Positions 1-58,619 of a DNA stretch of 64,000 bases are shown piece after piece. This DNA comes from an uncultured Pseudomonadales bacterium (GTDB lineage: Bacteria; Patescibacteriota; Microgenomatia; UBA1400), in the NCBI GenBank assembly GCA_964589815.1, contig CAZPUR010000003.1:42554-106553 (forward strand), in the 5' to 3' direction. Both the position numbers and the translations under genes were made by a program. Numbering within the stretch: the stretch's first letter is position 1; each line of letters opens with the position of its first letter. The notes beneath the pieces were generated by a model. It had not been told where the DNA came from. It saw only the letters and a program-made list of their open reading frames with translations, and did not search any database.

Positions 1-1708
1 CTTCTACGCCAGCCTCTTCATGTTCGGCTTCATAAGTTTTAAGTTTGTCAAAAAATTTGGCAATGTTGCCGGCCTGGACTTCTTCTTTTTGATTTTTAAC
101 CTCTGCTAATTTTTGGAGCAGACCGCTATCGTCAAGAAAGTAATAAAGGATTTGGCCAGCTGTTTCCTTAGGAATGAGTTTTAAATGGCGGTAGATCATT
201 TTAACAATTTTTTTTATTTTTTCCTTGCTTTTTTCTGAAATTAAAATCTTGTCAACCTGCTCTGCAGCCTCAAACAAAGAAAGATTTATTTTTTTAGCCA
301 GATTCCGCAAAGCAGCAATGTCCCGGGCAGAAATCTTAAAAATATCCAAAGACAAAATTCTGAAAAAAGCGACGTTATCTTCAAAATTATAAATGACTTT
401 AAGATAGGCGATGAGATCTTTAACTTCTTCCTGGCGAAGAAGTTTACCCGGGCCTAAAAATTGGAAAGGAATTCCTTGACGAATAAAGCTTCGGACAAAA
501 GCATCAGCATGATTATTAGCTCGAACCAAAATGGCGACATCTTTATATTGATAAGAGGCTTGCCCTGAATCGTGTTTGCTCTGGTTCAGGCTTAGTTTTT
601 TGATTTCTTGAGCGACTAAATCAGCCTCGTTTTCTACTCGGTCGGTTAAGAAAAACTTGATTTTTTCTCCCTGCCTGCCTGCCGGCAGGCTTTTAATTCT
701 TCTAACAGAGATGAGTTTTTTATCAATATTTTCTTTGATTTCCAAACGGTCAGGGTTATTATGCTGAATTAAATCATAAGCCCGATTTAAAATTTCCTGA
801 GTGGAACGGTAATTTTGGGTTAAAGTAATAATTTTGGCTTGAGGATAGGCTTTTTTGAATTGGAGAACATTGGAAATAGCCGCTCCCCGCCATTTATAAA
901 TAGATTGATCATCGTCGCAAACAACGGTGAGGTTGGCTTTTTTACCTGCCAAGAGTTTTACCAATTGATTCTGGGCAATATTAGTATCTTGGTATTCATC
1001 AACTAGGATATATTTAAATCTTTGACCGTATTGGCGCAAAACATTTTTTCTAGTTCTAAAAAGCTTTAAAGTGTTACTAATTAAATCCCCAAAATCCATC
1101 ACTCCTTCTTTAATTTTCAATTCTTCATATTTTTGATAAGCCTTAGCCAATTCCAAATTTTTCTTCATCTCTTCATTTTGCTCTTTTCGTTTTGCTCTTT
1201 GCTCTTGAGCCCAATGAAGGTAATCATTGGGCGATACGTCCTCGTCTTTCAACCGGCTAAAATGGTTTAATAAACCATTTAAAAATTTGGTGGGATTACC
1301 AGCCGGTCGAAAATAATCTAATTTAAAGTCAAACAAATGTTTTTTTAAAAAAAGCAAAGTTTCTGCCTCGGTCATTAAAACATAATGGGGATCAAGACCG
1401 ATGTGTAGAGCTTCATCTCTGAGAATTCGATCGCAAAAAGAATGAAAAGTAGAAATCCACATTTGGAAAAAGCCGTAGGGCATAATTTGATCAACTCTTT
1501 CTTCCATTTCCAGAGCCGCTTTTTCGGTAAAAGTTAAAGCCAGAATTTCTTGAGGTTTAGCCTGTTTAGAAGAGATAAGATACTTTATTCTTTCGGTGAC
1601 GACGGTCGTTTTTCCTGTTCCCGCGCCGGCAATAATTAAAAGCGGATCTTGACCAAATTTAATTGCCTGAAGTTGTTCTTTGTTTAATTTCTTTTTTTCC
1701 TTGTCCAT
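1..1708 (-). CDS. UvrD/PcrA-family ATP-dependent DNA helicase, N-terminal ~569 codons (C-terminus beyond window start)
   Basis: Absent from the ORF track because it is open to the window edge. Own minus-strand translation from ATG at 1708 gives MDKEKKKLNKEQLQAIKFGQDPLLIIAGAGTGKTTVVTERIKYL (Walker A). ILVDEYQDTN motif lies near 985-1012. Confidence 0.85.
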   Translation of the reverse strand, partial: MDKEKKKLNKEQLQAIKFGQDPLLIIAGAGTGKTTVVTERIKYLISSKQAKPQEILALTFTEKAALEMEERVDQIMPYGFFQMWISTFHSFCDRILRDEALHIGLDPHYVLMTEAETLLFLKKHLFDFKLDYFRPAGNPTKFLNGLLNHFSRLKDEDVSPNDYLHWAQEQRAKRKEQNEEMKKNLELAKAYQKYEELKIKEGVMDFGDLISNTLKLFRTRKNVLRQYGQRFKYILVDEYQDTNIAQNQLVKLLAGKKANLTVVCDDDQSIYKWRGAAISNVLQFKKAYPQAKIITLTQNYRSTQEILNRAYDLIQHNNPDRLEIKENIDKKLISVRRIKSLPAGRQGEKIKFFLTDRVENEADLVAQEIKKLSLNQSKHDSGQASYQYKDVAILVRANNHADAFVRSFIRQGIPFQFLGPGKLLRQEEVKDLIAYLKVIYNFEDNVAFFRILSLDIFKISARDIAALRNLAKKINLSLFEAAEQVDKILISEKSKEKIKKIVKMIYRHLKLIPKETAGQILYYFLDDSGLLQKLAEVKNQKEEVQAGNIAKFFDKLKTYEAEHEEAGVE

Positions 1709-5147: not shown

Positions 5148-5984
5148 ATGCTAGTTGATACTCATTGCCATCTTAATTTTCAGATTTTTAAGGGTAGAGT
5201 TAGAGAAGTTATTGAGGGGGCGAAAAAAGCGGGTGTGGAGAAAATGATTGTGCCAGGAACAGACTTGGAGACTAGTAAAAAAGCAGTAGAACTGGCTGAA
5301 AAATATCAAGAGGTTTATGCGGCCGTAGGCATTCATCCCCACCATGCTAGAATTAAGAATTTAGAATTAAGAATTAAGAATAAGTTAAAAGCATTAGCTA
5401 GAAATAAGTCTGTGGTGGCCATTGGAGAATGTGGTCTGGATTATTATCAATATCAGAAAACAAAATACAAAGATTATAAAATTAATGATCAGTTCAAACA
5501 AAAGCAAAAAGAAGTCTTCAAAATACAGATAGATTTAGCTAGGGAGCTAAAACTTCCTTTAATTATTCATAATCGTAAAGCTTCTGAGGACATTTTAGAA
5601 ATAATTGGAAATTGGAAACCTGCCCGTCCGGCAGGCGGGTTGGAAATTGGAAATTTTAATGGCGTTTTCCATTGTTTTGAAGGTGACGAGAAATTATTAA
5701 CCTGGGGACTAAAACACAATTTTTATTTTGGTATTACCGGGAATGTAACTTATAATGAAAAGATCAAGCAATCAATTAGAAAAATTCCTTTAAAGAATCT
5801 ATTAACCGAAACTGATACTCCTTATTTAGTTCCGGAACCTTTACATTCTCAAAAAATCTTTCCAAATGAACCTAAAAATGTTAAAATACTGGCCAAACGA
5901 ATCGCTGAGATAAAAGGCGATTCTTTTTTAAGAATAGAAGAACAAACAACCAAGAATGCAGTTCAATTATTTAAATTAGAATAA
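5148..5984 (+). CDS. tatD: TatD-family metal-dependent hydrolase/DNase
   Basis: MLVDTHCHLNF start, GECGLDYY and LIIHNR motifs. Confidence 0.9.
   Translation: MLVDTHCHLNFQIFKGRVREVIEGAKKAGVEKMIVPGTDLETSKKAVELAEKYQEVYAAVGIHPHHARIKNLELRIKNKLKALARNKSVVAIGECGLDYYQYQKTKYKDYKINDQFKQKQKEVFKIQIDLARELKLPLIIHNRKASEDILEIIGNWKPARPAGGLEIGNFNGVFHCFEGDEKLLTWGLKHNFYFGITGNVTYNEKIKQSIRKIPLKNLLTETDTPYLVPEPLHSQKIFPNEPKNVKILAKRIAEIKGDSFLRIEEQTTKNAVQLFKLE
5605..5653 (+). repeat. 21-nt GC palindrome (CCTGCCCGTCCGGCAGGCGGG) flanked by 14-nt perfect direct repeats TTGGAAATTGGAAA, inside tatD
   Basis: Read directly: left repeat 5605-5618, core 5619-5639, right repeat 5640-5653. The ORF stays open (KPARPAGGLEIGN). Confidence 0.85.
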
Positions 5985-12624: not shown

Positions 12625-13575
12625 TTACTGATAGACGGTAGTATATTTGCCAGAGACCCAGCCTTGCTTGCCTTCTTCATATTCAATTTTATTCCAGCCA
12701 TTTTCATCTTGTTCTATAAATTTATAAACTTCGCCCGGATGAACTTCTGTAAGCACTGTTTTTTTGTCGCCGCTAGGAGAAGGTTCAGAGCGGACATTTA
12801 ACCATCCCCATTGGTTGTTATCTATTTTGACATAAGGCCTTTCCATTTCATCAGCGGCTTCAGTCGCTTCTTCATCTTCTTCTAATTCGGGAGAAGGAGA
12901 GGGTTTGGGAGAAGGTTTAGGAGAAGCTTTTGTTTCTTCTTCCTTGACTTCCTCTTTTTCTTCCTCTGTCTCTCCACCAGCTGGCGGATTTTCTTCTAAC
13001 TCTTTAGCCAGCTGGACATTGATCATTAACTTATGACCCTTAATAGTTTTAGCTTTAATAGTTTCTTCCTTAAACCCAGGAGAAGAGATAATCAGTAGAT
13101 GTTCGCCTTCTTCAATGCCTTCTAAGGTGAGTGGAGTAAAACCTTTAGGTTCGCCATTTAAAGAAACGACCACACTATCAGGGTTGCTAATAATAGAAAT
13201 TTTGGCTTCGTCTTTTTCAGTAATTGGTTCTAAACTAAGAACATAGCCGCTTGATTCTTCTTCCGTTGCTCCTAGGTTGCGGTTGACCACGGTTAAAATT
13301 CCTGAACTGAGCTTAACTATGCCTTGCCAAGAAATTATTTGGGATTCAGAAGAATCAGGGACGATTTTTAAAGTATATTCTCCTTCTTTTAAGTTTTCGT
13401 CAAAATAAGGGGTTTGACCAATATGGTCTTCGTTTAAAAAAACAGTGGCCTTAGGATTAGAAGTAACCTGCAAAGCCGCCTTCTTTCTACTGGAAATAAA
13501 AGGAAGGTTGCAAGCCGTAAGAATTAAAGCGGCAACCACGAGGCAGGAAAATGAAACAATTCTGAAGAGCTTCAT
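12625..13575 (-). CDS. lipoprotein with PEGA repeats and C-terminal SH3b-like domain
   Basis: Signal peptide plus Cys (LILTAC), two PEGA-like segments, acidic/Pro-rich linker, C-terminal WLNVRSEPS...GWVSGKY. Confidence 0.65.
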   Translation of the reverse strand: MKLFRIVSFSCLVVAALILTACNLPFISSRKKAALQVTSNPKATVFLNEDHIGQTPYFDENLKEGEYTLKIVPDSSESQIISWQGIVKLSSGILTVVNRNLGATEEESSGYVLSLEPITEKDEAKISIISNPDSVVVSLNGEPKGFTPLTLEGIEEGEHLLIISSPGFKEETIKAKTIKGHKLMINVQLAKELEENPPAGGETEEEKEEVKEEETKASPKPSPKPSPSPELEEDEEATEAADEMERPYVKIDNNQWGWLNVRSEPSPSGDKKTVLTEVHPGEVYKFIEQDENGWNKIEYEEGKQGWVSGKYTTVYQ

Positions 13576-29723: not shown

Positions 29724-29730
29724 AGGAGAA

Positions 29731-29834
29731 TTGTTACATTGTTACATTGTTACATTGTTGATAGTTTTTTGTAATACAAATCGGAAGGCTACTGTTAGCA
29801 ATGAAGCAATGAAGCAATGAAGCAATGAAGCAAT
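29731..29834 (+). repeat. foldback spacer: (TTGTTACA)x3 + TTGTTGAT on the 5' arm, (GCAATGAA)x4 on the 3' arm
   Basis: Units pair in register (per 8 nt: 6 Watson-Crick, 1 G.U, 1 A.A). Helix base at 29731/29833. Confidence 0.8.
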
Positions 29835-30221
29835 TTGTTAATTAAGGCGGAACAAAAATACGTTAGAATAAGCCCTCAAAAAATGAGGTTGGTGGCGACT
29901 GCGGTTAAAAACCTTGTTCCTGAAGAAGCTTTAGACAAATTAAAATTTTTAAATAAAAGAGCCGCCCAGCCTTTGGCTAAAGTTATTAAGCAGGCCTTGG
30001 CCAATGCAACCAATAATTTTAAATTAAAAAAAGAAAGCTTAAAATTTAAAAGTATTCAAATAAGAAAAGGATCAACTTATAAACGATGGAGATCAGTTTC
30101 TCGGGGTAGAGCCCATTCAATATTTAAAAGAACGAGTCATATCAGGGTGATATTGGAGAGCAAAGAGCGAAACGAAAAGAGCAAAGATGCAGATCAAATA
30201 TCAAAAAGAAAAGGCAAATAA
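29835..30221 (+). CDS. rplV: 50S ribosomal protein L22 (uL22), TTG start
   Basis: (M)LIKAEQKYVRISPQKMRLVA matches the L22 N-terminus. The TTG is the end of the last degenerate repeat unit. Confidence 0.92.
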   Translation: MLIKAEQKYVRISPQKMRLVATAVKNLVPEEALDKLKFLNKRAAQPLAKVIKQALANATNNFKLKKESLKFKSIQIRKGSTYKRWRSVSRGRAHSIFKRTSHIRVILESKERNEKSKDADQISKRKGK

Positions 30222-30222
30222 T

Positions 30223-30354
30223 GGAATTACAAATCACAAGCACCAAATATCAAATAAATTCAAAGCACCAAATTAAAAATTCTAAACGTTTTGAATTTAA
30301 AAATTTTAATTTGAATATTGTTTGGAGTTTGGAGTTTGGAGTTTGGAGTTTTCC
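30223..30354 (+). repeat. foldback spacer, ACCAAAT/ATTTGGT family copy C1, with (TTTGGAG)x4
   Basis: GGAATT..(A)GTTTTCC closing pairs, AAATTCAAA/TTTGAATTT core. Shares AATTACAAATCACAA (15 nt) with 33910-33924. Confidence 0.7.
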
Positions 30355-30371
30355 GACAGAAGGGAGGCAAT

Positions 30372-31028
30372 TTGGGTCAAAAAATTCACCCTTTCGGTTT
30401 TCGGTTGGGTAAACTTTACTCTTGGAAATCAAGATGGTTTGCCCAAAAACAGAATTACCAAAAGTTTTTATTAGAGGATTTTAATTTAAGAAAGTTTCTG
30501 GAAGACAAGCTCCAATTGGCGGGTTTGGTTAGAGCAGAAATTGAGCGTTCAATTAATACTATTAAGATTATTCTTTATGTTTCTCGTCCGGGAGTGGTTA
30601 TTGGTCGAGGCGGTTCCGGTCTGGAAACCTTGAAAAAAGAAATTAATAAAAAATTAAAAATTGATCCCAAAGACCCCAAGCAACTAAAAGTTGATTTGGA
30701 AGTCAGAGAGGTAAAAAATCCCGAGCTTTCAGCCCGATTAATAGCTCAAAGGATAGCCTTTCAGCTTAAAAAAAGGTATCCTCATCGTCGAGCGGTGGCT
30801 CAGGCAATGGAAAGAGTTATGGCCGCTGGTGCTAAAGGAGTAAAAATTGTTCTCGCTGGCCGAATCGCTGGCGCGGAAATTTCTAGAACAGAAAAGTATT
30901 CTAAAGGAAGGGTGCCTTTGCAAACCTTAAGAGCAGACATTGATTATGCTCAAATGCCAAGCCTGACCAAATCTGGCTATATTGGCATAAAAATTTGGAT
31001 TTATAAAGGAGAAGAAGAAGTTAAGTAA
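30372..31028 (+). CDS. rpsC: 30S ribosomal protein S3 (uS3), TTG start
   Basis: (M)GQKIHPFGFRLG is the canonical S3 N-terminus. SD GGGAGG sits 5 nt upstream. The caller's upstream extension is repeat-encoded. Confidence 0.93.
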   Translation: MGQKIHPFGFRLGKLYSWKSRWFAQKQNYQKFLLEDFNLRKFLEDKLQLAGLVRAEIERSINTIKIILYVSRPGVVIGRGGSGLETLKKEINKKLKIDPKDPKQLKVDLEVREVKNPELSARLIAQRIAFQLKKRYPHRRAVAQAMERVMAAGAKGVKIVLAGRIAGAEISRTEKYSKGRVPLQTLRADIDYAQMPSLTKSGYIGIKIWIYKGEEEVK

Positions 31029-31068
31029 AAGTTGACTATCAATAAACAACTTAATCAACTAAAAAACA
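31029..31068 (+). repeat. short copy (3' part) of the TTAAGTAGTTGATTA...CTATCAATAAACAACTTAATCAACTAAAAAACA family
   Basis: 31035-31068 is identical over 34 nt to 33058-33091 and ends at the rplP ATG. Confidence 0.8.
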
Positions 31069-31479
31069 ATGTTACAGCCAAAAAAATTAAAATACCGAAA
31101 GCATTTTCGTGGCACTAGAGCAGGAATAGCCACGGCCGGTAACGCTTTAGAGTTTGGTGAATATGGACTTAAAAGCTTAGGTAGGGGCTGGTTGAAAAGT
31201 GCTCAAATTGAGGCGGCTAGGAAAACAATAGCTCATTATACCAAAAGACAGGCTAAGCTTTGGATTAGAGTTTTTCCTGACAAAACTTATACCCAGAAAT
31301 CAGCTGGGAGCAGAATGGGGCAAGGAAAAGGCGATTTGCAGGGTTATGTAGCCGTAGTCAAACCAGGCCGGATTATTTTTGAGTTGGCAGGGGTAGAAAA
31401 AGAAATTGCCCAGGAAGCCATTAGACGGGCTGGTGCCAAATTACCTTTTAAAACGCGGTTTATAGAAAGAGAGCAGTAG
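31069..31479 (+). CDS. rplP: 50S ribosomal protein L16 (uL16)
   Basis: [15 protein letters not shown] start. Confidence 0.96.
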
Positions 31480-31502
31480 ACAAACGTTATTGAATATAAA
31501 AT

Positions 31503-31718
31503 ATGGCTAAAAAATCAAAAGCAGATAACAAGCTTGAATTACAAAAGCTCTCAATTCCCGAGCTTAACAAGTTGTTAAGACAAAGTCAGACAGAATGGCT
31601 AAAGCTAAAATTGGAACTGAAAACAGGTAAATTAAAAAACCTTCATCAGTCCAGACAAAAAAGAAAAGAGATTGCTCGGATTAAAACAATTATTAGAGAA
31701 AAGGAATTAGTAAAATAG
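31503..31718 (+). CDS. rpmC: 50S ribosomal protein L29 (uL29)
   Basis: Size, position and the [20 protein letters not shown] pattern. Confidence 0.88.
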
Positions 31719-31797
31719 AAATAAGTTCAAAAGTTCATTAAGTTCATAGAGTTAATAGTAAAAAATTACTCATAACTTGTTGAGCTCATAACTAATT
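31719..31797 (+). repeat. foldback spacer, GTTCATTAAGTTCAT family copy A1
   Basis: Alignable to 34454-34547 and 41368-41463. Ends ...ATAACTAATT directly at the rpsQ GTG. Confidence 0.75.
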
Positions 31798-32025
31798 GTG
31801 AAACAATTAACCGGTACAGTTGTCAGCATTAAGATGCAAAAAAGTGCGGTGGTCAAAGTTGACAGAACCTACCGTCATCCTTTATATAAAAAAACCATTA
31901 AAAAAAGTAAAAAATATTTAGTTGATAATCAACTTAAGGTTAAAAAAGGAGATAAAGTGATTATTCAAGAGTGCCGGCCAATAAGTAAGAGTAAGAGGTT
32001 TAGAATCATTAGAGTTATTAAGTAG
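31798..32025 (+). CDS. rpsQ: 30S ribosomal protein S17 (uS17), GTG start
   Basis: LTGTVVSIKMQKSAVVKVDRTYRHPLYKK pattern. Confidence 0.93.
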   Translation: MKQLTGTVVSIKMQKSAVVKVDRTYRHPLYKKTIKKSKKYLVDNQLKVKKGDKVIIQECRPISKSKRFRIIRVIK

Positions 32026-32173
32026 TGTATTAAGTAGTTGATTAGGTCCGACGCGATGGTCGGACCGTTAACTGATAGTTAACTGATAGTTTCTACCCAG
32101 TCAACGCGAGTCCTGACGTTACGTCGGGGCGAGCTAGTTAACCATAAATTAACTACTTAATTGACTATAAACG
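32026..32173 (+). repeat. foldback spacer, TTAAGTAGTTGATTA family copy with nested GC hairpins
   Basis: ATTAAGTAGTT (32030-40) is complementary to AACTACTTAAT near 32147-57. Nested GGTCCGAC-N6-GTCGGACC (32045-66) and CCTGACGTTACGTCGGGG (32112-29). (TTAACTGATAG)x2. Confidence 0.7.
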
Positions 32174-32548
32174 ATGATCCAATTACACACCATTTTAAAA
32201 CCAGCAGATAATTCTGGCGCCAAACGTTTAAGGGTGATTCATATCCATGGCGGCTCAACCCGCCCTTTTGGTTCTATTGGTGATATTACTACTTGTGCGG
32301 TTGACCAGGCTGATCCGCAGGGAATAGTTAAAGACTCACAATTGGTTAAAGTGGTTATCGTTAGAACCAAAAAAGAGATTAGAAGACCAGATGGTTCTTA
32401 TATTCGTTTTGATGATAATGCGGGTGTGGTGATCGAGAGTTTAAAAAATAAAGTGCCGGTGGGAACAAGAATTTTTGGTCCTATTGCCAGAGAGATAAAA
32501 GATTTAGGTTATAGCAAGATTGTTTCTATGGCATCGGAGGTGTTGTGA
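32174..32548 (+). CDS. rplN: 50S ribosomal protein L14 (uL14)
   Basis: [19 protein letters not shown] start. Confidence 0.96.
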
Positions 32549-32567
32549 TTCAAAGAATCACAACACC
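32539..32567 (+). repeat. perfect 13-bp hairpin (GGTGTTGTGATTC-AAA-GAATCACAACACC) containing the rplN stop codon
   Basis: Read directly. TGA at 32546-48 lies in the 5' arm. Confidence 0.8.
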
Positions 32568-32601
32568 CTGACCCCGTATTTATGCGGGAGAAGGATCTCA
32601 A

Positions 32602-32940
32602 ATGAAAAAGAATAAGCCAATTAGATTGAAAATGAAAATCCGCAAAGGAAATACTGTTAAAGTTATGGCTGGAAAAGATAAAGGTAAAACCGGCAAGGTG
32701 GAAAAAGTTTTACCTAAAGTTGCTGCAGTCTTAGTAGAAGGAGTTAATAAGTATAAAAAACATCTTAAACCCCAGGGTGAAGGTAAACCTGGTGGTATTG
32801 TAGAGATAAGTAAACCTTTACCTGTGGCTAATGTGGTTTTGCTCTGTCCCAAGTGCCAAAAACCAACCCGTGTGGGTTACCAAACAGACAGGAGTAATAA
32901 AAAATATAGAATTTGTAAAAAATGCAAGGAGGCAATATAA
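32602..32940 (+). CDS. rplX: 50S ribosomal protein L24 (uL24), with C-terminal CxxC..CxxC zinc-ribbon-like tail
   Basis: KGNTVKVMAGKDKGKTGKV KOW motif. Tail CPKCQKPTRVGYQTDRSNKKYRICKKC. Confidence 0.92.
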   Translation: MKKNKPIRLKMKIRKGNTVKVMAGKDKGKTGKVEKVLPKVAAVLVEGVNKYKKHLKPQGEGKPGGIVEISKPLPVANVVLLCPKCQKPTRVGYQTDRSNKKYRICKKCKEAI

Positions 32941-33091
32941 GTGTTAATTAAGTAGTTGATTAACTCGTTAACGCTCGTGTTAATTAGGTAGTTAATTAAC
33001 TAGTTTAATATAGTCCTATCAATCAACATGATCCGCCAGCTGGCGGAGAATAAATTAACTATCAATAAACAACTTAATCAACTAAAAAACA
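32941..33091 (+). repeat. foldback spacer, TTAAGTAGTTGATTA family, full copy
   Basis: 33015-33089 is identical over 75 nt to 41177-41251. TAGTTGATTA (32952-61) pairs with TAATCAACTA (33075-84). Carries palindrome TCCGCCAGCTGGCGGA (33032-47). Confidence 0.85.
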
Positions 33092-33646
33092 ATGAGTCGT
33101 TTACAACAAAAATACCAAAAAGAAATTGTTCCGGAGTTAAAAAAGGAATTTAAGATTAAAAATGATCTGGCTGTGCCTAAGGTAGCAAAAGTGGTACTTA
33201 ATGTGGGGATTGGCGAAATCGCTCATGATAAACAGGCTTTGGAAAAAGCCAAAAATACTTTAGCGGCCATTACCGGTCAGAAACCTTTAATTCGTCCGGC
33301 CAAAAAAGCAATTGCTGATTTTAAGATTAGAAAAGGCAATTCAGTCGGTCTTAAAGTAACTTTAAGAAGGAAAAGAATGTATGATTTTTTAGATAAACTA
33401 TTCTCTTTGGTTTTACCCTTGGTGCGTGATTTTCAGGGAGCTAAGCAGAATGCCTTTGATCAAGATGCCAATTATACCTTAGGCTTAAAAGAGCAGGTTA
33501 TTTTTCCTGAGGTGGACTATGATAAAATTGACAAGGTTCGAGGGATGGAGATTAGTATTGTTATCTCGACTAAAGACAAGAAAAAAGCAGCTAGATTGTT
33601 AGAATTAATGGGAATGCCGTTTACTAAGGAGGAATTAGGAAATTAG
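33092..33646 (+). CDS. rplE: 50S ribosomal protein L5 (uL5)
   Basis: SRLQQKYQKEIVPELKKEF start and the NVGIGE region. Confidence 0.95.
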   Translation: MSRLQQKYQKEIVPELKKEFKIKNDLAVPKVAKVVLNVGIGEIAHDKQALEKAKNTLAAITGQKPLIRPAKKAIADFKIRKGNSVGLKVTLRRKRMYDFLDKLFSLVLPLVRDFQGAKQNAFDQDANYTLGLKEQVIFPEVDYDKIDKVRGMEISIVISTKDKKKAARLLELMGMPFTKEELGN

Positions 33647-33653
33647 GATAAAA

Positions 33654-33705
33654 GTGATTAGTCAAAAAAAGACTAATCACTAATCACTAATCACTAATCA
33701 CTAAA
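33654..33705 (+). repeat. 10-bp perfect hairpin (GTGATTAGTC-A7-GACTAATCAC) followed by (TAATCAC)x4
   Basis: The heptamer array 33674-33701 places TAA in all three frames just before the S14 start position. Confidence 0.8.
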
Positions 33706-33891
33706 ATCGCTAAAGTTTCTAAATTTGCTAAACAGCAAAAAAAACCAAAATTTTCTAGCCGGAAGCACAACCGCTGTAAAATTTGCGGTCGACCCAGGGC
33801 CTATATTAGGCTTTTTGGCCTTTGCCGTTTATGTTTTCGTCAAATGGCCCATAAAGGAGAATTACCAGGGGTAACTAAAGCCAGCTGGTAA
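33706..33891 (+). CDS. rpsZ: 30S ribosomal protein S14 type Z (uS14), apparent ATC start
   Basis: Absent from the ORF track. Own translation: (I)[60 protein letters not shown]. 61 codons, CxxC..CxxC, collinear with Zn-type S14. No ATG/GTG/TTG in frame after the stop at 33688-90. Confidence 0.85.
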
Positions 33892-34034
33892 GCTTTAAAG
33901 AAATGACCAAATTACAAATCACAAATTCCAAACAATATCAAAACACCAAATTCAAAATCCAAAACTGTTTTGAATTTGAATATTTGAATTTAGGATTTAT
34001 TTGTCATTTGGTATTTGGTGCTTGGAATTTAAGC
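33892..34034 (+). repeat. foldback spacer, ACCAAAT/ATTTGGT family copy C2
   Basis: Base pairs GCTT/AAGC (33892-95 / 34031-34), ACCAAAT/ATTTGGT (33906-12 / 34013-19), and further pairing along the arms by manual tracing. Confidence 0.75.
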
Positions 34035-34054
34035 ATTAGTGAACGGAGTGAACA

Positions 34055-34453
34055 ATGCTGACAGATCCTATTGCTGATATGTTAATCAGAATCAAAAATG
34101 CCTGCTTGGCTAAGAAAAACCAGGCAGTACTGCCTTATTCTAAAATCAAAGAAAAAATCGCTAAAATTTTTCTTAGTCAAGGCTATCTTAATCAGGTTAA
34201 AAAAGAAAGCTTAAAGAATAAACAAGGAGAGGTTTTGATTTGTGACTTAAAGTATGAAAAAAACAGTTCAGTTATAAGAAACATACAAAGGGTTTCCAAA
34301 CCAGGGATGAGGGTTTATTTATCTTGGAAAAAATTACCCAGGCCTAGTTTTGGTATGGGGATAAGTATTATTTCTACCTCTAAAGGGTTAATGACCAATG
34401 CTGAGGCAATTAAGAAGAGACTAGGAGGAGAAGTAGTCTGTAAAATTTGGTAA
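34055..34453 (+). CDS. rpsH: 30S ribosomal protein S8 (uS8)
   Basis: MLTDPIADMLIRIKNA start. Confidence 0.96.
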   Translation: MLTDPIADMLIRIKNACLAKKNQAVLPYSKIKEKIAKIFLSQGYLNQVKKESLKNKQGEVLICDLKYEKNSSVIRNIQRVSKPGMRVYLSWKKLPRPSFGMGISIISTSKGLMTNAEAIKKRLGGEVVCKIW

Positions 34454-34547
34454 ATAAAGAGAAATAAGAAAAGAGTTCATTAAGTTCATGGAGTTAATAG
34501 TAAAAAAAATTACTCATAACTCATAACTTGTTGAACTAATAACTAAT
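34454..34547 (+). repeat. foldback spacer, GTTCATTAAGTTCAT family copy A2
   Basis: GAGTTAAT/ATTACTC top stem and GTTCAT units opposite ATAAC units. Ends ...ATAACTAATT at the rplF TTG. Confidence 0.75.
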
Positions 34548-35102
34548 TTGTCTAAAGTTGGAAAGCAACCTATTAAAATACCCGAAGGAGTAACGGTTGA
34601 GATTAAACCTAGTCAAGTGATCGTTAGTGGTCCCAGGGGAAGTTTGACTCAGGAAATCAGGTCGGAGATAAAAGTTGAAAAAAAGGAAAACCAGATTTTA
34701 GTTCAACCAAACTCGCAAAGTAAACTGGTTAAGTCTTTACACGGTTTACTAAGAAGCCTGATTGCCAACATGATTCAGGGAGTGACTAAAGGTTTTGAAA
34801 AAACTTTAGAACTACAGGGAGTCGGCTACCGCGTCAATTTAGAACAGGAAAATTTAACCTTAGCTTTAGGTTTTTCTCATCCGGTAGTAGTTAAACCACC
34901 TGAAGGAATTAAATTTCAGGTAGAAGGCAATAATTTGATTAGAGTTTTAGGTATTGATAAACAATTAGTTGGTCAGATAGCCGCTGGAATTAGAAGGATT
35001 AGACCGCCGGACAGCTACAAAGGCAAAGGCATAAGATACGAGGGTGAAGTGATTAAGTTAAAGCCTGGCAAGGCGGCCAAGACAGAAGCAGCCGCAACAT
35101 AA
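34548..35102 (+). CDS. rplF: 50S ribosomal protein L6 (uL6), TTG start
   Basis: (M)SKVGKQPIKIPEGV is the canonical L6 N-terminus. Confidence 0.95.
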   Translation: MSKVGKQPIKIPEGVTVEIKPSQVIVSGPRGSLTQEIRSEIKVEKKENQILVQPNSQSKLVKSLHGLLRSLIANMIQGVTKGFEKTLELQGVGYRVNLEQENLTLALGFSHPVVVKPPEGIKFQVEGNNLIRVLGIDKQLVGQIAAGIRRIRPPDSYKGKGIRYEGEVIKLKPGKAAKTEAAAT

Positions 35103-35114
35103 GGAGTCTAAATA

Positions 35115-35528
35115 ATGATTAAACGTTACAAGCATAAAACGCTTAAAAGAAAAATCAAGATCAGGGCCAAACTTTTGAAAATAGGTCGAAGACCCAGGTT
35201 ATCTGTTTTTCGTTCTAATAAATATATTTATGCCCAGATTATTGATGACCAAAAAGGAAAAACACTGGCGGCGGCTAGTGAAAAAGACATAAAAGAAAAC
35301 TCCAATCCGCCAGCTGGCGGACCAAAACTCCCCCGACCTCGCCTCGGCTCGGCCGAGGGCGGGCAAAACTCCAAGATTAACAGAGCGTTTCAGGTGGGTC
35401 AAATCTTGGCCAAGAAAGCCTTAAAAATAAAGATTAAAAAAGTATATTTTGACCGCGGCGGCTATAAATATCATGGCCTGATTAAAGCCTTAGCTGAGGG
35501 TGCCAGAAAAGGAGGACTGGAGTTCTAA
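35115..35528 (+). CDS. rplR: 50S ribosomal protein L18 (uL18) with a 23-codon GC-rich insertion
   Basis: RLSVFRSNKYIYAQIIDD and GGYKYHG motifs. Insertion NPPAGGPKLPRPRLGSAEGGQNS. Confidence 0.93.
   Translation: MIKRYKHKTLKRKIKIRAKLLKIGRRPRLSVFRSNKYIYAQIIDDQKGKTLAAASEKDIKENSNPPAGGPKLPRPRLGSAEGGQNSKINRAFQVGQILAKKALKIKIKKVYFDRGGYKYHGLIKALAEGARKGGLEF
35295..35371 (+). repeat. two adjacent GC palindromes, each bounded by the 8-nt direct repeat AAAACTCC (three copies)
   Basis: AAAACTCC at 35295, 35323 and 35364. Cores TCCGCCAGCTGGCGGA (35305-20) and CCCGACCTCGCCTCGGCTCGGCCGAGGGCGGG. Periods 28 + 41 = 69 nt. Confidence 0.85.
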
Positions 35529-35582
35529 TCCGCCAGCCTCGCTGAGCGGGGCCAGCTGGCAGACTAATTCCTAATTTCTAAA

Positions 35583-36071
35583 ATGCAAAGACAGAGACAG
35601 AGAGAATTTGATAATAAGCAATTCTGGGGCAAGAAGGAATTTGAAGAAAAGGTAGTTCAAGTTAAAAGAGTTTCAAAGAAAACTAAAGGCGGTAATCAAA
35701 TTAGATTTACAGCTTTGGTAGTAGCAGGGAATAAAAAGGGGAAGGTAGGCGTGGGCTTAGGTAAAGCCCCAGATGTTCTATCAGCCATTCAAAAAGGCAC
35801 CCGTTTAGCCAAAAAAAATCTGATTAATGTTCCTATACAAGCAGGAACCATCAGCCATGATGTTTATGTTAAAAGGGGGGCGGCTAAAGTTTTATTAAGG
35901 TCTGCGCCCGAGGGTACGGGTGTGATTGCTGGCGGGCCGGTAAGATATGTAGTTGAGGCAGCTGGAGTGAGGAATATTGTTTCTAAAATTTTAGGCACCA
36001 AAAATAAAGCTAGCAATATTTATGCCACTATAGAGGCATTGAAGCAGTTAAAGAGGAGAAAGGATAAATGA
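35583..36071 (+). CDS. rpsE: 30S ribosomal protein S5 (uS5)
   Basis: VVQVKRVSKKTKGGNQIRFTALVVAGN pattern. Confidence 0.95.
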   Translation: MQRQRQREFDNKQFWGKKEFEEKVVQVKRVSKKTKGGNQIRFTALVVAGNKKGKVGVGLGKAPDVLSAIQKGTRLAKKNLINVPIQAGTISHDVYVKRGAAKVLLRSAPEGTGVIAGGPVRYVVEAAGVRNIVSKILGTKNKASNIYATIEALKQLKRRKDK

Positions 36072-37986: not shown

Positions 37987-38136
37987 ATTTTCAATTTTCA
38001 AATCCCAATTTTCATTGAATTTTCAAATCCCAATTTTCAAACTGCATTTAAAAAGATCAAAAAAGTTTGAGAATTAAAAAATTGTAAATTAATTATTCAT
38101 TGTAAATTGAAAATTGTTAAATTGAAAATTAAAATT
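37986..38136 (+). repeat. foldback spacer between secY and adk with (ATTTTCAAATCCCAATTTTCA)x2
   Basis: 37986-38001 pairs with 38122-38136 (15 bp, one bulged C at 37992) by manual pairing. The helix base joins the last nt of the secY TAA to nt -1 of the adk ATG. Confidence 0.75.
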
Positions 38137-38727: not shown

Positions 38728-38743
38728 GCGCAGCGTAGGATCT
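38718..38743. repeat. GTCATCCTGAGCGCAGCGTAGGATCT repeat overlapping the adk stop codon
   Basis: The adk TGA (38725-27) is the TGA inside the GTCATCCTGA motif. Confidence 0.75.
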
Positions 38744-38745
38744 AT

Positions 38746-41119: not shown

Positions 41120-41253
41120 ATATAGTTATTAAGTGGTTGATTAGCTCGCAACGCTCGCGTTAATTAGGTAGTTAATCCTATCAATCAACATGATCCGCCA
41201 GCTGGCGGAGAATAAATTAACTATCAATAAACAACTTAATCAACTAAAAAATC
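41120..41253 (+). repeat. foldback spacer, TTAAGTAGTTGATTA family, second full copy
   Basis: 41177-41251 is identical to 33015-33089. Lacks ~18 nt present in the other copy. Ends at the rpmJ ATG. Confidence 0.85.
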
Positions 41254-47290: not shown

Positions 47291-47364
47291 TGAGGTAGTA
47301 AAATTTAGAAGCCACACTTCTCCCGCCAAATTGGCGGGATATGGCGAGGCAAAGGAAGGAAAAT

Positions 47365-52137: not shown

Positions 52138-53216
52138 GAAGCTGAAATTTTTCCTCCCCCCAAACATAGCTTACCATCATAAAAAACGGCAAATTGGCCT
52201 GGAGTAATAGCTCTTTGAGGTTGATTAAAAACAAGCTTGAGTTGTTTATTTTGGGGAGGGTAAAGAACAGCTGGTTGTTCTTGGTGACCATACCTGATTT
52301 TTGCCCTTACTTTAATTGTTTTTATGGGTGTTTTTCCAGAGATAAAATTAAAAGGCGAAAGCTCTATTTCTTTTTGAAGCAAATCTTTTTCATTTTGAGT
52401 CACAATAACTTGGTTGTTTCGAGAATCCAGTTGTTTAACAAAATATGGTCCTCCGGAAAGACCAATTCTTTTTCTTTGACCAATAGTATAAAAATGTAAA
52501 CCCTGATGTTTACCCAAAACATTACCTTGAGTATTAATGATTTTTCCTGGTTTTTGACCCAGCCTTGTTTTCAAAAACTCAGTAATTTTTTTGCTCGGAC
52601 AATAACAAAAATCCTGACTTGACTTTACTATAATTGAACTGCGCCTGCCTGCCGGCAAGGCAGGGCCGCTATTAAATAATAGTAATTTTCTAGCCATTTT
52701 TATTACTTGTTTTTTAGTATATTCTCCTAAAGGGAAAACAATATGTTTTAATTGTTCCCGGGTTAAAAAAGAAAGATAATAGGTTTGATCCTTGGCTCTA
52801 TCCTTGGCTTTCAAGAGTTGATAGCTTTTAGCTTTTAGCTTTAAGCTTTCAGCTATTCTCGCGTAGTGTCCTGTTGCCACATAATTTATTTTTCTTTTTT
52901 TAGCCAATTCCAAAAGCTTTTTAAATTTAAGTTGGGGATTACAGATAATACAAGGATTGGGTGTCCGGCCATTTTTATATTCATTAATAAAATAATCCAC
53001 TACCTTTTGTTTAAATTCTTTTTTAACATCCAAAATATAATGGGGAATTTTTAACATTTGGCAGACTTTTTTTGCACTTGCGAAAGATCTTTTGTTTTGC
53101 CAGGCAGGGATATCTAAAGAAACGCCAATCGGCTCCCAACCGTGTTTTTTCAAAAAAAAAGCGGCCATGGAAGAATCAACTCCGCCAGATAGTCCCACAA
53201 TAATTTTTTCCTTCAT
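52134..53216 (-). CDS. mnmA: tRNA 2-thiouridine(34) synthase MnmA, with a GC-palindrome insertion
   Basis: VGLSGGVDSS PP-loop and NPCIICN motifs. Insertion GPALPAGRRSS at 52641-52669. Confidence 0.93.
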   Translation of the reverse strand: MKEKIIVGLSGGVDSSMAAFFLKKHGWEPIGVSLDIPAWQNKRSFASAKKVCQMLKIPHYILDVKKEFKQKVVDYFINEYKNGRTPNPCIICNPQLKFKKLLELAKKRKINYVATGHYARIAESLKLKAKSYQLLKAKDRAKDQTYYLSFLTREQLKHIVFPLGEYTKKQVIKMARKLLLFNSGPALPAGRRSSIIVKSSQDFCYCPSKKITEFLKTRLGQKPGKIINTQGNVLGKHQGLHFYTIGQRKRIGLSGGPYFVKQLDSRNNQVIVTQNEKDLLQKEIELSPFNFISGKTPIKTIKVRAKIRYGHQEQPAVLYPPQNKQLKLVFNQPQRAITPGQFAVFYDGKLCLGGGKISAS

Positions 53217-58504: not shown

Positions 58505-58516
58505 CCTGCCGGCAGG
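58505..58516. repeat. intergenic copy of the palindrome CCTGCCGGCAGG
   Basis: Same core as 677-690, 5619-39 and 52641-69. Confidence 0.85.
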
Positions 58517-58619
58517 CAGGTTTCGCGTCTAAAAGTTTAGCGCTATTTAGTGTTAATTTTTAGTGTTATTTCGTGTTTAGAAATTTAGCGTATTTCGTGT
58601 CTAGGAGGTGAGATAATTA

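What the first reader, a model, noticed from the sequence alone, without database searches (positions are those of the whole stretch)
677..690. GC-rich palindromes sit in-frame in five unrelated proteins and are always read as Pro-Ala-Gly
Seen: cores CCTGCCGGCAGG / CCGCCAGCTGGCGG occur in the UvrD-like gene 677-690 (LPAGRQ), tatD 5619-5639 (PARPAGG), the PEGA lipoprotein 12974-12987 (PPAGG, imperfect copy), rplR 35305-35320 (PPAGG) and mnmA 52641-52669 (LPAGRR). Intergenic copies lie at 33032-47, 41194-209 and 58505-16, with a related CCCGCC..GGCGGG at 47322-38. They are sharp GC islands in an AT-rich sequence. A palindrome offers only three reading frames. All five coding copies use the frame giving P-A-G, and none uses the Trp/Cys/Arg-rich frames. 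Established: Rickettsia palindromic elements (RPEs) insert in-frame into protein genes. Inference: this is an RPE-like selfish palindrome family, filtered by selection for a tolerated loop peptide.
Basis: partly seen in the sequence, partly recalled or inferred. Interest (0 to 1): 0.7.

Follow-up and report, generated by a model that had tools for sequence, protein, structure and literature searches.

The report
Tiny mobile GC hairpins inside genes
This AT-rich candidate-phyla-radiation bacterium carries 16-21-base GC-rich hairpin sequences inserted precisely into protein loops and gene spacers; the same 20- and 21-base sequences turn up in unrelated genes of other such bacteria and in many phage contigs, so they look like some of the smallest mobile DNA elements, and their "Pro-Ala-Gly" reading is mostly a by-product of the sequence.

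Summary
The palindromes are real, sit at the stated coordinates and are far above chance. Two families exist: A, built on CCTGCCTGCC|GGCAGGCAGG, and B, TCCGCCAGCTGGCGGA. In uL18, TatD, MnmA and the AddA/UvrD-like helicase they are insertions absent from orthologues. The PEGA copy is not a length insertion.

The same exact 21-mers recur in different genes of different genomes: CCTGCCTTGCCGGCAGGCAGG in window mnmA, L020 helicase, L269 TatD and L283 uL18; CCTGCCCGTCCGGCAGGCGGG in window TatD and L282 MnmA. The 20-mer occurs at 39 or more sites in phage contigs of 38-71% GC, including inside tRNA-Met genes.

Insertion is precise, with no obligatory target duplication. It prefers tandem 7-bp arrays and hairpin tips. 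All six A copies sized against an orthologue are 21 nt, which keeps the frame.

"Always Pro-Ala-Gly" fails outside the window. Family A gives PAG in two of three frames, and relatives use the third (PACRQGR, LPVRQAG). Family B mostly reads PPAGG (5 of 6), with one SASWR.

Best reading: an RPE-like idea, but the closest match is the cyanobacterial "small dispersed repeats". The copying mechanism is unknown.

The parts
671..691 (-). Family A, 21-bp in-frame insert in the AddA/UvrD-like helicase. Coding strand AGCCTGCCGGCAGGCAGGCAG reads SLPAGRQ.
   Evidence: Exact 7-aa gap in both orthologues L019 and L020. Palindrome GCCTGCCGGCAGGC at 677-690. Translation.
5619..5639 (+). Family A variant A-21b, CCTGCCCGTCCGGCAGGCGGG, a 21-bp in-frame insert in TatD read PARPAGG.
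   Evidence: Absent from PDB orthologues and 21 relatives. Removing exactly 21 bp restores a gapless alignment. The identical 21-mer is in L282 MnmA and viral L083. AF2 pLDDT is below 50 only at residues 159-168.
5603..5655 (+). Heptamer array (TTGGAAA)2 | insert | (TTGGAAA)2 surrounding the TatD insert.
   Evidence: TRF reports period 7 at 100% identity on both sides. The two halves are read in different frames, so they cannot be a duplication made by the insertion. Relatives carry IENWRLRIENL at this position.
5346..5381 (+). Uninterrupted heptamer array (AGAATTA)~5 encoding ARIKNLELRIKNKL. This is the empty orthologous site of the TatD inserts in L019 (family B) and L020 (family A).
12974..12987 (-). 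Imperfect family B copy, CCACCAGCTGGCGG, in the Glu/Lys/Pro-rich linker of the PEGA-SH3 lipoprotein, read PPAGG.
   Evidence: One mismatch to the 14-mer. No length difference from the L020 orthologue, so its status as an insertion is unproven.
33032..33047 (.). Family B 16-mer TCCGCCAGCTGGCGGA in the leader upstream of rplE.
   Evidence: It is part of the 85-nt repeat 33011-33095. It was not called as a terminator because no T-run follows.
35306..35374 (+). 69-bp (23-codon) composite insert in the uL18 loop. It holds the family B 16-mer (35306-35321) and a second hairpin CCTCGGC-TCG-GCCGAGG (35342-35358), separated and flanked by AAAACTCC repeats.
   Evidence: A gap of about 20 aa against PDB uL18. 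Gaps of 11-22 aa against all relatives in syntenic loci. Sequence. Fold energy -28.5 kcal/mol.
35549..35558 (.). Degenerate family B core GCCAGCTGGC in the rplR-rpsE spacer.
   Evidence: three mismatches to the 14-mer. Membership is uncertain.
41194..41209 (.). Family B 16-mer in the leader upstream of rpmJ. It is a duplicate of the 33011-33095 leader.
47321..47339 (.). Related hairpin TCCCGCC-AAATT-GGCGGGA just upstream of ORF 47341. The same CCCGCC..GGCGGG stem hosts a nested family B copy in L281 MnmA.
   Evidence: Family membership is tentative.
52641..52676 (-). The 12-aa insert FNSGPALPAGRR in MnmA. Its core is the 21-mer A-21a, CCTGCCTTGCCGGCAGGCAGG (52644-52664, minus strand).
   Evidence: 12-aa gap against PDB MnmA. 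Present only in the closest relative P0122/L280, where it is CCTGCCTGTCCGGCAGGCAGG, and absent from the other 118 of the 120 listed homologues (43 shown aligned). The same 21-mer is in L020 helicase, L269 TatD, L283 uL18 and five viral loci.
58505..58520 (.). Family A copy CCTGCCGGCAGGCAGG between the RNase Y gene and the HU gene, followed directly by a 24-bp tandem repeat.

Best explanation
These are very small (16-21 nt) GC-rich, hairpin-forming dispersed repeats. They are copied as exact units and inserted precisely at new sites. They behave like RPEs or organelle GC clusters, but in anatomy they are closest to the "small dispersed repeats" (SDR) of Nostoc.

Shown:
(i) The copies in uL18, TatD, MnmA and the helicase are lineage-specific insertions.
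(ii) Identical 20- and 21-mers occupy unrelated genes in different CPR genomes and in phage contigs of 38-71% GC.
(iii) Removing the unit restores the uninterrupted host sequence, whether a heptamer array, a tRNA or a protein alignment, so no target duplication is required.
(iv) Sites are enriched for tandem 7-bp arrays, for the tips of other hairpins (nesting) and for R|Y steps.
(v) All six family-A copies whose insert could be sized against an orthologue are 21 nt, while the 20-mer was seen in spacers, tRNA genes and hairpin tips. The frames of the viral copies were not assessed.
(vi) Once inserted, a copy can be inherited vertically (the MnmA copy shared with L280) and then decays.

Inferred: only copies that keep the frame and fall in tolerant surface loops or hypervariable expansion segments survive. 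The PAG-type peptides are a by-product of CCNGCC/GGCNGG arms.

Inferred, weakly: the unit moves as a single-stranded hairpin (ssDNA at a fork, or RNA). Either host replication and repair (template switching at slippage-prone heptamer arrays) or an unidentified trans-acting enzyme does the copying. No dedicated element-encoded protein is involved.
For: Significance.

Insertion status:
- uL18.
- TatD: and the disordered loop.
- MnmA.
- Helicase.

Empty syntenic loci: the nearest relatives L001-L003 have none in 60 kb.

Independent insertions of the same units at other positions or genes:
- L019 TatD, exact family B.
- L020 TatD and helicase.
- L269 and L224 TatD.
- L281 and L282 MnmA.
- L283 and L284 uL18.
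- Exact 21-mers are tabulated.

Cross-phylum spread: more than 120 viral stretches matched the pattern, with 71 distinct 16-mer sites of which 39 are the full 20-mer.

tRNA-Met genes: one copy in the D-loop and one in the variable loop. Deleting the copy from the D-loop of L181 lets ARAGORN call a tRNA-Met that it otherwise misses; L163 is called as tRNA-Met with or without it.

Heptamer context: lag-7 autocorrelation is 0.355 and 0.394 against 0.268 in controls, and 7 is the only elevated lag. In-phase arrays are seen.

Nesting: L157, L281, uL18.

Flank bias: 30 of 37 left purine and 28 of 37 right pyrimidine.

Hairpin stability: -10 to -14 kcal/mol.

Independent assemblers and sources (JGI, MEGAHIT, SPAdes, NCBI, Logan) argue against an artefact.
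Against: - No enzyme or donor intermediate was identified. Pfam scans of 25 of the 97 ORFs of 80 aa or more found no transposase, RAYT or reverse transcriptase, but the window is only about 64 kb of the genome.
- No filled-versus-empty polymorphism was seen within one species. The nearest relatives are only 64-76% identical in protein (TatD 68%, MnmA 71%, uL18 64-66%, SecY 72-76%), so recent mobility is not shown directly.
- The PEGA copy is not a length insertion.
- Only about 40% of sites have a clear heptamer context.
- In several related phages the 20-mer sits at the same place, just after the major capsid gene. This could mean conservation for a function rather than repeated insertion.
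- The comparison with SDRs rests partly on my memory of a paper that is not held.
Confidence: 0.72

Rival explanations
1. The hairpins are functional structural signals, such as transcription terminators or attenuators, RNA-stability or processing sites, or binding sites for a conserved protein. On this view they are kept or convergently selected for that function, and the coding copies are incidental.
For: - The intergenic copies lie in leaders or spacers of highly expressed operons (33032, 41194, 58505).
- In related phages the 20-mer lies just downstream of the major capsid gene while the flanks diverge.
- The stems are very stable.
Against: - Half of the window copies are translated parts of essential proteins.
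- The B copies have no T-run and were not called as terminators.
- The same unit is found in tRNA D- and variable loops.
- It is nested inside other hairpins and occurs in any orientation and frame.
- The nearest relatives lack all copies in the syntenic ribosomal operon.
Confidence: 0.1
2. They are REP/REPIN-type elements or minimal MITEs, mobilised by a cognate genome-encoded transposase (a RAYT or IS200/IS605 TnpA, or a DDE enzyme recognising the two arms as terminal inverted repeats).
For: - Size and hairpin form resemble REPs.
- Insertion without target duplication fits HUH/Y1 transposases that act on single-stranded hairpins.
- A minority of viral copies have immediate direct repeats of 7-14 bp (L104, L151, L087).
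- Two L157 copies are preceded by GTAG.
Against: - There is no conserved GTAG or CGTC tag, and none in the window.
- Copies are not extragenic.
- Copies are mostly single rather than doublets.
- No transposase or RAYT was found in the 25 window ORFs scanned.
- REPs co-evolve with their RAYT and are species-specific (PMC3116915, PMC3733652), whereas the same 20- and 21-mers occur from 32% to 71% GC hosts.
- The direct repeats are explained by pre-existing in-phase heptamer arrays.
Confidence: 0.12
3. Each palindrome arose locally and de novo, by fold-back template switching or slippage at a GC-rich half-site or by biased repair. Nothing was copied from elsewhere. The similarity reflects a mutational attractor, as proposed for HIP1-type iterated palindromes.
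For: - The palindromes sit in slippage-prone tandem arrays.
- The arms are (CCTG)n/(CAGG)n repeats.
- Elhai 2015 (PMC4390886) proposes that iterated palindromes such as HIP1 arise in connection with DNA methyltransferases, an origin that needs no copying from elsewhere.
Against: - Relatives have no GC-rich half-site at the empty sites.
- The events are net insertions of 21-69 bp.
- Asymmetric 21-mers such as CCTGCCTTGCCGGCAGGCAGG and CCTGCCCGTCCGGCAGGCGGG recur exactly in unrelated genes and genomes, which local fold-back cannot produce.
Confidence: 0.04
4. The P-A-G segments are ancestral or functionally selected protein motifs, and the DNA palindromy is secondary.
For: All five window copies read PAG. 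Family B reads PPAGG or LPAGG in 5 of 6 events.
Against: - The segments are absent from orthologues.
- The same DNA is translated as PACRQGR, LPVRQAG, SCLAGRQ, LPAGKAG and SASWR elsewhere.
- The same units are found in non-coding DNA and in tRNA genes.
Confidence: 0.02

Closest known systems
Small dispersed repeats (SDR1-8) of Nostoc punctiforme and relatives (Elhai et al. 2008, Genome Res 18:1484). The paper is not held. Its details come from my memory and from citing papers PMC5861425, PMC4390886 and bioRxiv 10.64898/2026.06.24.733823.
   Same: - Size: SDR5 is 21 nt according to the 2026 bioRxiv paper, and the families span 21-27 nt from memory.
- Hairpin-forming.
[quoted passage not shown]
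- Often embedded in tandem heptameric repeats, and nested within other copies (from memory). Both features are seen here.
- No associated transposase, and an unknown mechanism.
   Different: - SDRs were reported as confined to Nostocaceae (PMC5861425). Here the hosts are CPR/Microgenomates and phage contigs of 38-71% GC.
- The units here are nearly perfect GC-rich palindromes of 16-21 nt.
- Many copies are translated inside essential genes.
- The same exact sequence crosses phyla.
- Sequence relatedness to SDR1-8 could not be tested. A 50-kb piece of a Nostoc plasmid showed heptamer arrays but neither these cores nor an evident SDR5.
   Same: Palindromic selfish repeats inserted in-frame into unrelated protein genes and also into RNA genes and spacers. 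They are tolerated in surface segments and occur in a reduced, AT-rich genome.
   Different: From my own knowledge, RPEs are about 100-150 bp and restricted to Rickettsia. They are not linked to heptamer arrays and are not shared with phages or other phyla. The units here are 5-10 times shorter.
REP/REPIN elements with RAYT transposases (PMC3116915, PMC3733652)
   Same: GC-rich hairpins of about 20-40 nt that are highly repeated. They are thought to move as single-stranded hairpins without target duplication.
   Different: REPs are extragenic, carry a GTAG or CGTC tag, usually act as doublets, are species-specific and are accompanied by a RAYT gene. None of this was seen here.
Mobile GC clusters and hairpin elements of organelle genomes: yeast mitochondrial GC clusters, Allomyces double-hairpin elements, Volvox palindromic repeats (PMC2670323) and Nematomorpha coding palindromes (PMC6649704)
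   Same: Short GC-rich palindromes that spread through AT-rich genomes and are sometimes found inside coding and rRNA genes in frame.
   Different: Those are organellar, lineage-specific and usually 30-100 nt or longer. No heptamer-array context is known to me.

Membership tests
Rickettsia palindromic elements (RPE) | Element length of roughly 100-150 bp encoding 30-50 aa | tested here: not met
   Units are 16-21 nt. The largest composite insert is 69 bp.
Rickettsia palindromic elements (RPE) | In-frame insertion into unrelated protein-coding genes, absent from orthologues | tested here: met
   uL18, TatD, MnmA and the helicase.
Rickettsia palindromic elements (RPE) | Insert lies on the protein surface or in a tolerant loop | tested here: met
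   In the TatD AF2 model the only segment with pLDDT below 50 is residues 159-168, which has no secondary structure. The uL18 site is a hypervariable loop of 21-63 aa across relatives. MnmA and the helicase were not modelled.
Rickettsia palindromic elements (RPE) | Sequence homology to RPE families and Rickettsia host range | tested here: not met
   The host is a Microgenomates-type CPR bacterium. No sequence comparison with RPE consensus was possible, but the length alone excludes homology.
Small dispersed repeats (SDR; Elhai 2008) | Very small unit (21-27 nt) able to form a hairpin | tested here: met
   21-mers A-21a and A-21b, the 20-mer and the 16-mer fold at -10 to -14 kcal/mol. The 16- and 20-nt units are slightly below the published range.
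Small dispersed repeats (SDR; Elhai 2008) | Often embedded within tandem heptameric repeats | tested here: met
   Lag 7 is the only elevated autocorrelation, at 0.355 and 0.394 against 0.268. About 40% of sites exceed the control 95th percentile.
Small dispersed repeats (SDR; Elhai 2008) | Precise insertion, including into other palindromes or copies (nesting) | tested here: met
   L157 hairpin tips carry either the A 20-mer or TCCGCCGCGGCGGA. In L281, B sits inside CCCGCC..GGCGGG. tRNA genes are restored by deleting the unit.
Small dispersed repeats (SDR; Elhai 2008) | Sequence identity to SDR1-8 and restriction to Nostocaceae | not testable with these tools
   The paper and its consensus sequences are not held. 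Host range clearly differs. A 50-kb Nostoc plasmid sample has no A or B cores.
REP/REPIN-RAYT | Conserved GTAG or CGTC tag at one end of the stem | tested here: not met
   No tag on any window copy. Only two L157 copies are preceded by GTAG. Flanks show only an R|Y bias.
REP/REPIN-RAYT | Extragenic location | tested here: not met
   Five of nine window copies are translated.
REP/REPIN-RAYT | Cognate RAYT (Y1 transposase) gene in the genome | tested here: inconclusive
   None was found among the 25 window ORFs scanned or the called genes of related loci. Only fragments of each genome were seen.
MITE | Terminal inverted repeats around an internal segment, fixed-length target-site duplication, 50-500 bp | tested here: not met
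   There is no internal segment. Flanking repeats are absent or are in-phase parts of pre-existing arrays of varying length. The TatD flanks are read in different frames, so they cannot be a duplication.
Intrinsic transcription terminator | GC-rich stem followed by a T-run at the end of a transcription unit | tested here: not met
   The scan of 30000-49000 did not call 33032 or 41194. 58505 is followed only by TTT. The coding copies are irrelevant to this test.

The most novel reading that the evidence does not exclude
The 20-mer CCTGCCTGCCGGCAGGCAGG and its 21-nt derivatives are a host-independent, protein-less mobile element, the smallest known. The idea is that a stable hairpin gets itself copied by the replisome or repair machinery (template switching or hairpin capture) at slippage-prone heptamer arrays and exposed loops. 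This would let it cross phyla through phages. Its 21-nt (3 x 7) variants would be length-adapted to colonise coding DNA in gene-dense CPR genomes.
Probability: 0.25. Interest if true: 0.9.

Novelty: new variant of a known kind. Interest (0 to 1): 0.7.

Why it matters
Cyanobacterial SDRs showed in 2008 that sequences of about 21 nt can behave as mobile DNA. They were thought to be confined to one family, and their mechanism has remained unknown.

The same anatomy is found here: a tiny hairpin, heptamer arrays, nesting and precise insertion. It occurs in CPR bacteria and in phage contigs of very different base composition, with exactly shared 20- and 21-mers. This suggests a general and possibly enzyme-independent way of spreading. 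It also offers many independent insertion events on which to test the mechanism.

The finding explains part of the unusual loop expansions in CPR ribosomal and housekeeping proteins. It warns annotators that "PAGR/PPAGG" loops, long tRNA variable arms and split tRNA D-loops can be element insertions. It also gives a sequence marker for tracing exchange between phages and CPR hosts.

Tried and rejected
1. Rfam at gathering threshold on the window gave no hit.
2. Target-site duplication was attractive at first: 14-bp repeats around the TatD copy and 8-13-bp repeats elsewhere. I rejected it as a general feature. The TatD repeats are read in different frames and exist in relatives without the insert. 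The arrays are in phase once the unit is removed. Only 3-5 of the 36 viral sites tested have immediate repeats.
3. Literature searches for the core sequences returned only unrelated zebrafish papers for CCTGCCGGCAGG and nothing for CCGCCAGCTGGCGG.
4. BLAST of the 20-mer against the annotated phage collection found no match, probably because of low-complexity masking.
It was still useful as background, with five A or B copies in 716 kb, all in loci of 38-43% GC.
6. Exact look-ups of the window's own TatD and RmuC-like proteins were not on record. The window could therefore be extended by only about 4 kb (L021).
7. A search for a shared enzyme gene among multi-copy viral contigs found only shared head-module genes: portal, capsid and protease.
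8. The Nostoc plasmid sample showed heptamer arrays but no recognisable SDR for direct comparison.
9. I considered a link to restriction sites, since the centres are CAGCTG and GCCGGC. I dropped it because A-21b lacks GCCGGC and other family members have other centres.
10. A sequencing or assembly artefact was rejected. The inserts are in-frame. The orthologous copy in L280 shows substitutions. The same units were recovered by five independent sources and assemblers.
Full report
**1. The observation**

The window is 37.4% GC. A systematic search for GC-rich hairpins recovers them.

They fall into two families.
- Family A is built on CCTGCC..GGCAGG, at 677, 5619, 52644 and 58505.
- Family B is TCCGCCAGCTGGCGGA, at 33032, 35306 and 41194, with an imperfect copy at 12974.

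Both are far above chance. Family A gives 8 matches against 0.64 expected and family B gives 5 against 0.56. None of 100 dinucleotide-preserving shuffles reached either count.

The five coding copies lie in the real reading frames of five genes:
- an AddA/UvrD-like helicase;
- TatD;
- a PEGA-SH3 lipoprotein;
- uL18;
- MnmA.

They read LPAGRQ, PARPAGG, PPAGG, PPAGG and ALPAGRR.

Two corrections matter. First, family A yields P-A-G in two of its three frames (CCT GCC GGC AGG, and C CTG CCG GCA GG). The "all five in one frame" pattern therefore has a chance probability of about 0.03 rather than something tiny. Second, the two intergenic B copies belong to one duplicated leader of 85-125 bp.

**2. 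The organism and its relatives**

SecY-centred loci from GTDB species representatives place the window in the CPR/Patescibacteria, among Beckwithbacteria/Shapirobacteria-like Microgenomates. The best SecY identity is 72-76%.

The three nearest syntenic ribosomal-operon loci are L001-L003, at 33-35% GC and 60 kb in total. They contain none of these palindromes.

**3. Insertions, not ancestral residues**

- **uL18.** It aligns to solved uL18 chains in two blocks, leaving about 20 extra residues. All relatives show gaps of 11-22 aa at that point. The DNA is a 69-bp block (35306-35374). It holds the B 16-mer and a second hairpin, CCTCGGC-TCG-GCCGAGG, punctuated by three AAAACTCC repeats.
- **TatD.** The segment PARPAGG is missing from the S. 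aureus and Thermotoga structures and from 21 relatives. An AlphaFold model built on that alignment (pTM 0.84) has a single segment with pLDDT below 50, residues 159-168. This is the insert, lying between a helix and a strand.
- **MnmA.** It has 12 extra residues relative to solved structures. Among 120 homologues only the closest (P0122, 71% identity) shares the insert.
- **Helicase.** It has an exact 7-aa (21-bp) insert, SLPAGRQ, relative to both orthologues available.
- **PEGA.** This copy is the exception. It sits in an acidic linker with no length difference from its orthologue.

**4. The same units elsewhere**

TatD relatives carry the units at a different place in the protein. L019 (68% identity) has the exact B 16-mer, read HPPAGG. 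L020 (57% identity) has CCTGCCTCGCCGGCAGGCAGG, read SCLAGRQ. L020 also has a family A copy in its helicase at a different position from the window's.

L269 and L224 carry A and B copies in TatD. L281 and L282 carry B and A copies at a second MnmA site. L283 and L284 carry A and B copies in the uL18 loop.

Asymmetric 21-mers recur exactly:
- CCTGCCTTGCCGGCAGGCAGG (A-21a) is in window mnmA, L020 helicase, L269 TatD, L283 uL18 and five viral loci.
- CCTGCCCGTCCGGCAGGCGGG (A-21b) is in window TatD, L282 MnmA and viral L083.

The window's mnmA copy and that of L280 differ by a TG/GT swap at the orthologous site. This shows vertical inheritance after insertion.

These loci come from JGI, ENA (MEGAHIT and SPAdes), NCBI and Logan assemblies. 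An assembly artefact is therefore excluded.

**5. Beyond the CPR**

There are 71 distinct 16-mer sites, and 39 of them are the perfect 20-bp palindrome CCTGCCTGCCGGCAGGCAGG. The contigs range from 38% to 71% GC, and several hold 2-6 copies.

By my rough estimate a given 20-mer should occur less than once by chance in a collection of that size. This figure is an inference, because the size of the collection is not given.

Two tRNA-Met genes carry the unit.
- In L163 it forms a long variable arm, and ARAGORN still calls the tRNA.
- In L181 it sits in the D-loop, and deleting it lets ARAGORN call a tRNA-Met that it otherwise misses.

In L157 a longer repeat, GTGCCCCATCCTTG..CAAGGGTGGGTC, carries one of three things at its tip: a short loop, the A 20-mer, or TCCGCCGCGGCGGA, which is B-like. 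A and B thus behave as alternative payloads of one process, and they nest in other hairpins. The B 16-mer gave 55 viral hits. About 20 of these are in contigs below 51% GC, where the flanks extend the palindrome. Most of the rest look like chance IRQLAE codons in GC-rich DNA.

**6. Insertion-site anatomy**

At first the flanking direct repeats looked like target-site duplications. They are TTGGAAATTGGAAA around the TatD copy, TCAAAAATCA in L019, GAAATCCGAAA in L020 and TCTCGTCTCTCGCT in L104. They are not duplications, for three reasons.
- The two TatD repeats are read in different frames.
- Relatives without the insert have the same periodic peptide (IENWRLRIENL).
- Removing exactly the unit restores an in-phase tandem array of 7-bp units.

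Examples of such arrays:
- window TatD, (TTGGAAA)4;
- L283, (AAAAACT)5;
- L162, (GGTGAAA)n;
- L079, with two palindromes after the GG of successive GGTGAGA units;
- L104 and L151.

These are shown.

Quantitatively, lag 7 is the only elevated autocorrelation in the 28-bp flanks. It is 0.355 at 37 viral sites and 0.394 at 14 CPR-type sites, against 0.268 (sd 0.071) at 2040 random positions. About 40% of sites lie above the control 95th percentile.

Flanks favour a purine on the left and a pyrimidine on the right (30 of 37 and 28 of 37).

The window itself is rich in perfect 7- and 8-bp arrays, none of which is expected by chance. One of them, (AGAATTA)~5 at 5346-5381, encodes ARIKNLELRIKNKL. It is the empty orthologous site of the L019 and L020 TatD insertions.

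The uL18 loop is a hypervariable expansion segment across the clade, 21-63 aa long. It often shows heptad-periodic peptides such as KSKIKNQKSKIKN.

**7. Length and frame**

Six family-A copies could be sized against an orthologue, and all six are 21 nt. Five are the 20-mer plus one base or a 21-nt derivative of it:
- window TatD (A-21b);
- window mnmA;
- the orthologous mnmA copy in L280;
- L020 TatD;
- L283 uL18.

The sixth, the window helicase insert, is (CCTG)3CCGGCAGGC and is not a simple +1 derivative.

The same 21-mers in L020 helicase, L269 TatD and L282 MnmA are core units; their insert lengths were not measured. L020 helicase shows a gap of about 11 aa.

The 20-mer was seen in spacers, tRNA genes and hairpin tips. 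The frames of the viral copies were not assessed.

Because identical 21-mers recur, they seem to propagate as 21-mers rather than arising each time by compensation.

Frame use is not restricted. Family A events are in phase 0 three times, phase 1 twice and phase 2 three times. A-21a alone is read as PALPAGR, PCLAGRQ, LPAGKAG and PACRQGR. Family B reads PPAGG or LPAGG in 5 of 6 events and SASWR once. This bias is suggestive (p about 0.02 by my own arithmetic). The window and L284 uL18 copies may not be independent.

**8. What it is and how it probably works**

*Shown.* A family of 16-21-nt GC-rich hairpin units is copied exactly and inserted precisely. No target duplication is required. Insertion goes preferentially into heptamer arrays, hairpin tips and exposed RNA-gene loops. 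Copies persist where the host tolerates them: surface loops, linkers and spacers.

*Inferred.* Selection removes out-of-frame or structurally harmful copies. The PAG peptides are a consequence of CCNGCC/GGCNGG arms.

*Weakly inferred.* The moving form is a single-stranded hairpin. The catalyst is either host replication and repair, or an unidentified trans-acting enzyme. [quoted passage not shown] 2007). Pfam scans of 25 window ORFs found no transposase, RAYT or reverse transcriptase. Multi-copy phage contigs share only head-module genes.

**9. Comparison with known systems**

It fails on membership, in size, host range and context.

REP/REPIN elements fail on the tag, the extragenic location, species specificity and the RAYT (PMC3116915, PMC3733652). 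MITEs fail on terminal inverted repeats, target duplications and size. Terminators fail on the T-run.

The closest match is the small dispersed repeats of Nostocaceae (Elhai et al. 2008). The papers I could read state three things.
- SDR5 is a 21-nt unit (bioRxiv 10.64898/2026.06.24.733823).
- It is inserted precisely between the third and fourth bases of the HIP1 palindrome (PMC4390886).
- No SDR-like repeat was found outside Nostocaceae (PMC5861425).

From memory of the 2008 abstract, SDRs are hairpins of 21-27 nt, "often embedded within tandem heptameric repeats" and nested within copies of themselves. They were thought to move through RNA intermediates. I could not read that paper or compare sequences. 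A 50-kb Nostoc plasmid sample showed heptamer arrays but none of these cores.

**10. Verdict**

The selfish-palindrome interpretation is right in kind. The "Pro-Ala-Gly filter" is largely an artefact of the sequence and the small sample.

The finding is best filed as a new variant of a known but obscure kind: SDR-like micro-elements, here in CPR bacteria and phages, with codon-compatible 21-nt forms inside essential genes. The cross-phylum identity of the units and their heptamer-array targeting are the unexpected parts, and they make the unresolved SDR mechanism testable.

Noticed in passing
window 33011-33095, 41173-41257, 31035-31071: A long AT-rich leader is repeated at 96% identity upstream of rplE and rpmJ. 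Its last 37 nt (ACTATCAATAAACAACTTAATCAACTAAAAAACAATG) also precede the rplP start codon. It looks like a conserved leader without a Shine-Dalgarno sequence in the ribosomal operons.
   Followed up: partly
window 44199-44232 and 55034-55067: A 34-nt double-hairpin repeat, ATCAGCCAGAGGCTGATCGTCCTTTGGACGAAAT, occurs at 97% identity immediately upstream of rplM and of recA. It may be a shared regulatory or processing element.
   Followed up: no
window 29730-29759, 29797-29834, 30320-30351, 33672-33704, 52822-52842: Perfect tandem arrays of 7- or 8-bp units with 3-4.8 copies. Some lie in coding DNA and some form imperfect inverted pairs in the rpsS-rplV spacer. None is expected in Markov-1 shuffles. 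The same heptamer-array habit is seen in a Nostoc plasmid.
   Followed up: partly
window 5346-5381 (TatD aa 67-78), with alignment A1: Each TatD lineage has its own tripeptide repeated at 7-aa spacing (IKN..IKN, ITN..ITN, IMN..IMN, VQS..VQS). The segment length matches that of distant orthologues. This suggests that the heptamer array is homogenised independently in each lineage, a form of concerted evolution inside a coding segment.
   Followed up: partly
window 45676-45716: A 41-nt island of about 80% GC lies in a non-coding stretch upstream of tRNA-Pro (45976-46047). It has no Rfam hit at gathering threshold. It could be an unannotated small RNA.
   Followed up: no
window 58521-58604: A 24-bp tandem repeat of 3.5 copies follows palindrome 58505-58520 directly and precedes the HU gene. 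A nested terminator-like hairpin at 58454-58492 follows the RNase Y gene.
   Followed up: no
uL18 homologues P0241-P0360 (loop equivalent to window 35292-35370): The loop between AAASEKD and (A/R)xxVG is a hypervariable expansion segment in Microgenomates. It is 21-63 aa long against 23-25 typical, and is often Lys-rich and heptad-periodic. One protein (P0272) has a large internal duplication.
   Followed up: partly
L157 8900-10560 (IMG/VR contig 3300037242_000417): A REP-like long imperfect hairpin, GTGCCCCATCCTTG..CAAGGGTGGGTC, with G-T pairs on one strand only, occurs at least six times in both orientations between small genes. It carries different apical inserts.
   Followed up: partly
L079 10600-10670 and 11200-11330; L162 520-940: Phage spacers downstream of the major capsid gene are built from heptamer arrays in inverted orientation, (GGTGAGA)n ... 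(TCTAACC)n or (TCTCACC)n, with palindromes inserted. They are followed by small lipoprotein genes.
   Followed up: no
L198 455-560 and L083 8560-8660: The 20-mer also sits inside partial tRNA-like sequences: a D-arm fragment in L198 and an anticodon arm without a T-arm in L083. ARAGORN does not call these even after the unit is removed. They may be tRNA-derived attachment sites or pseudogenes.
   Followed up: partly
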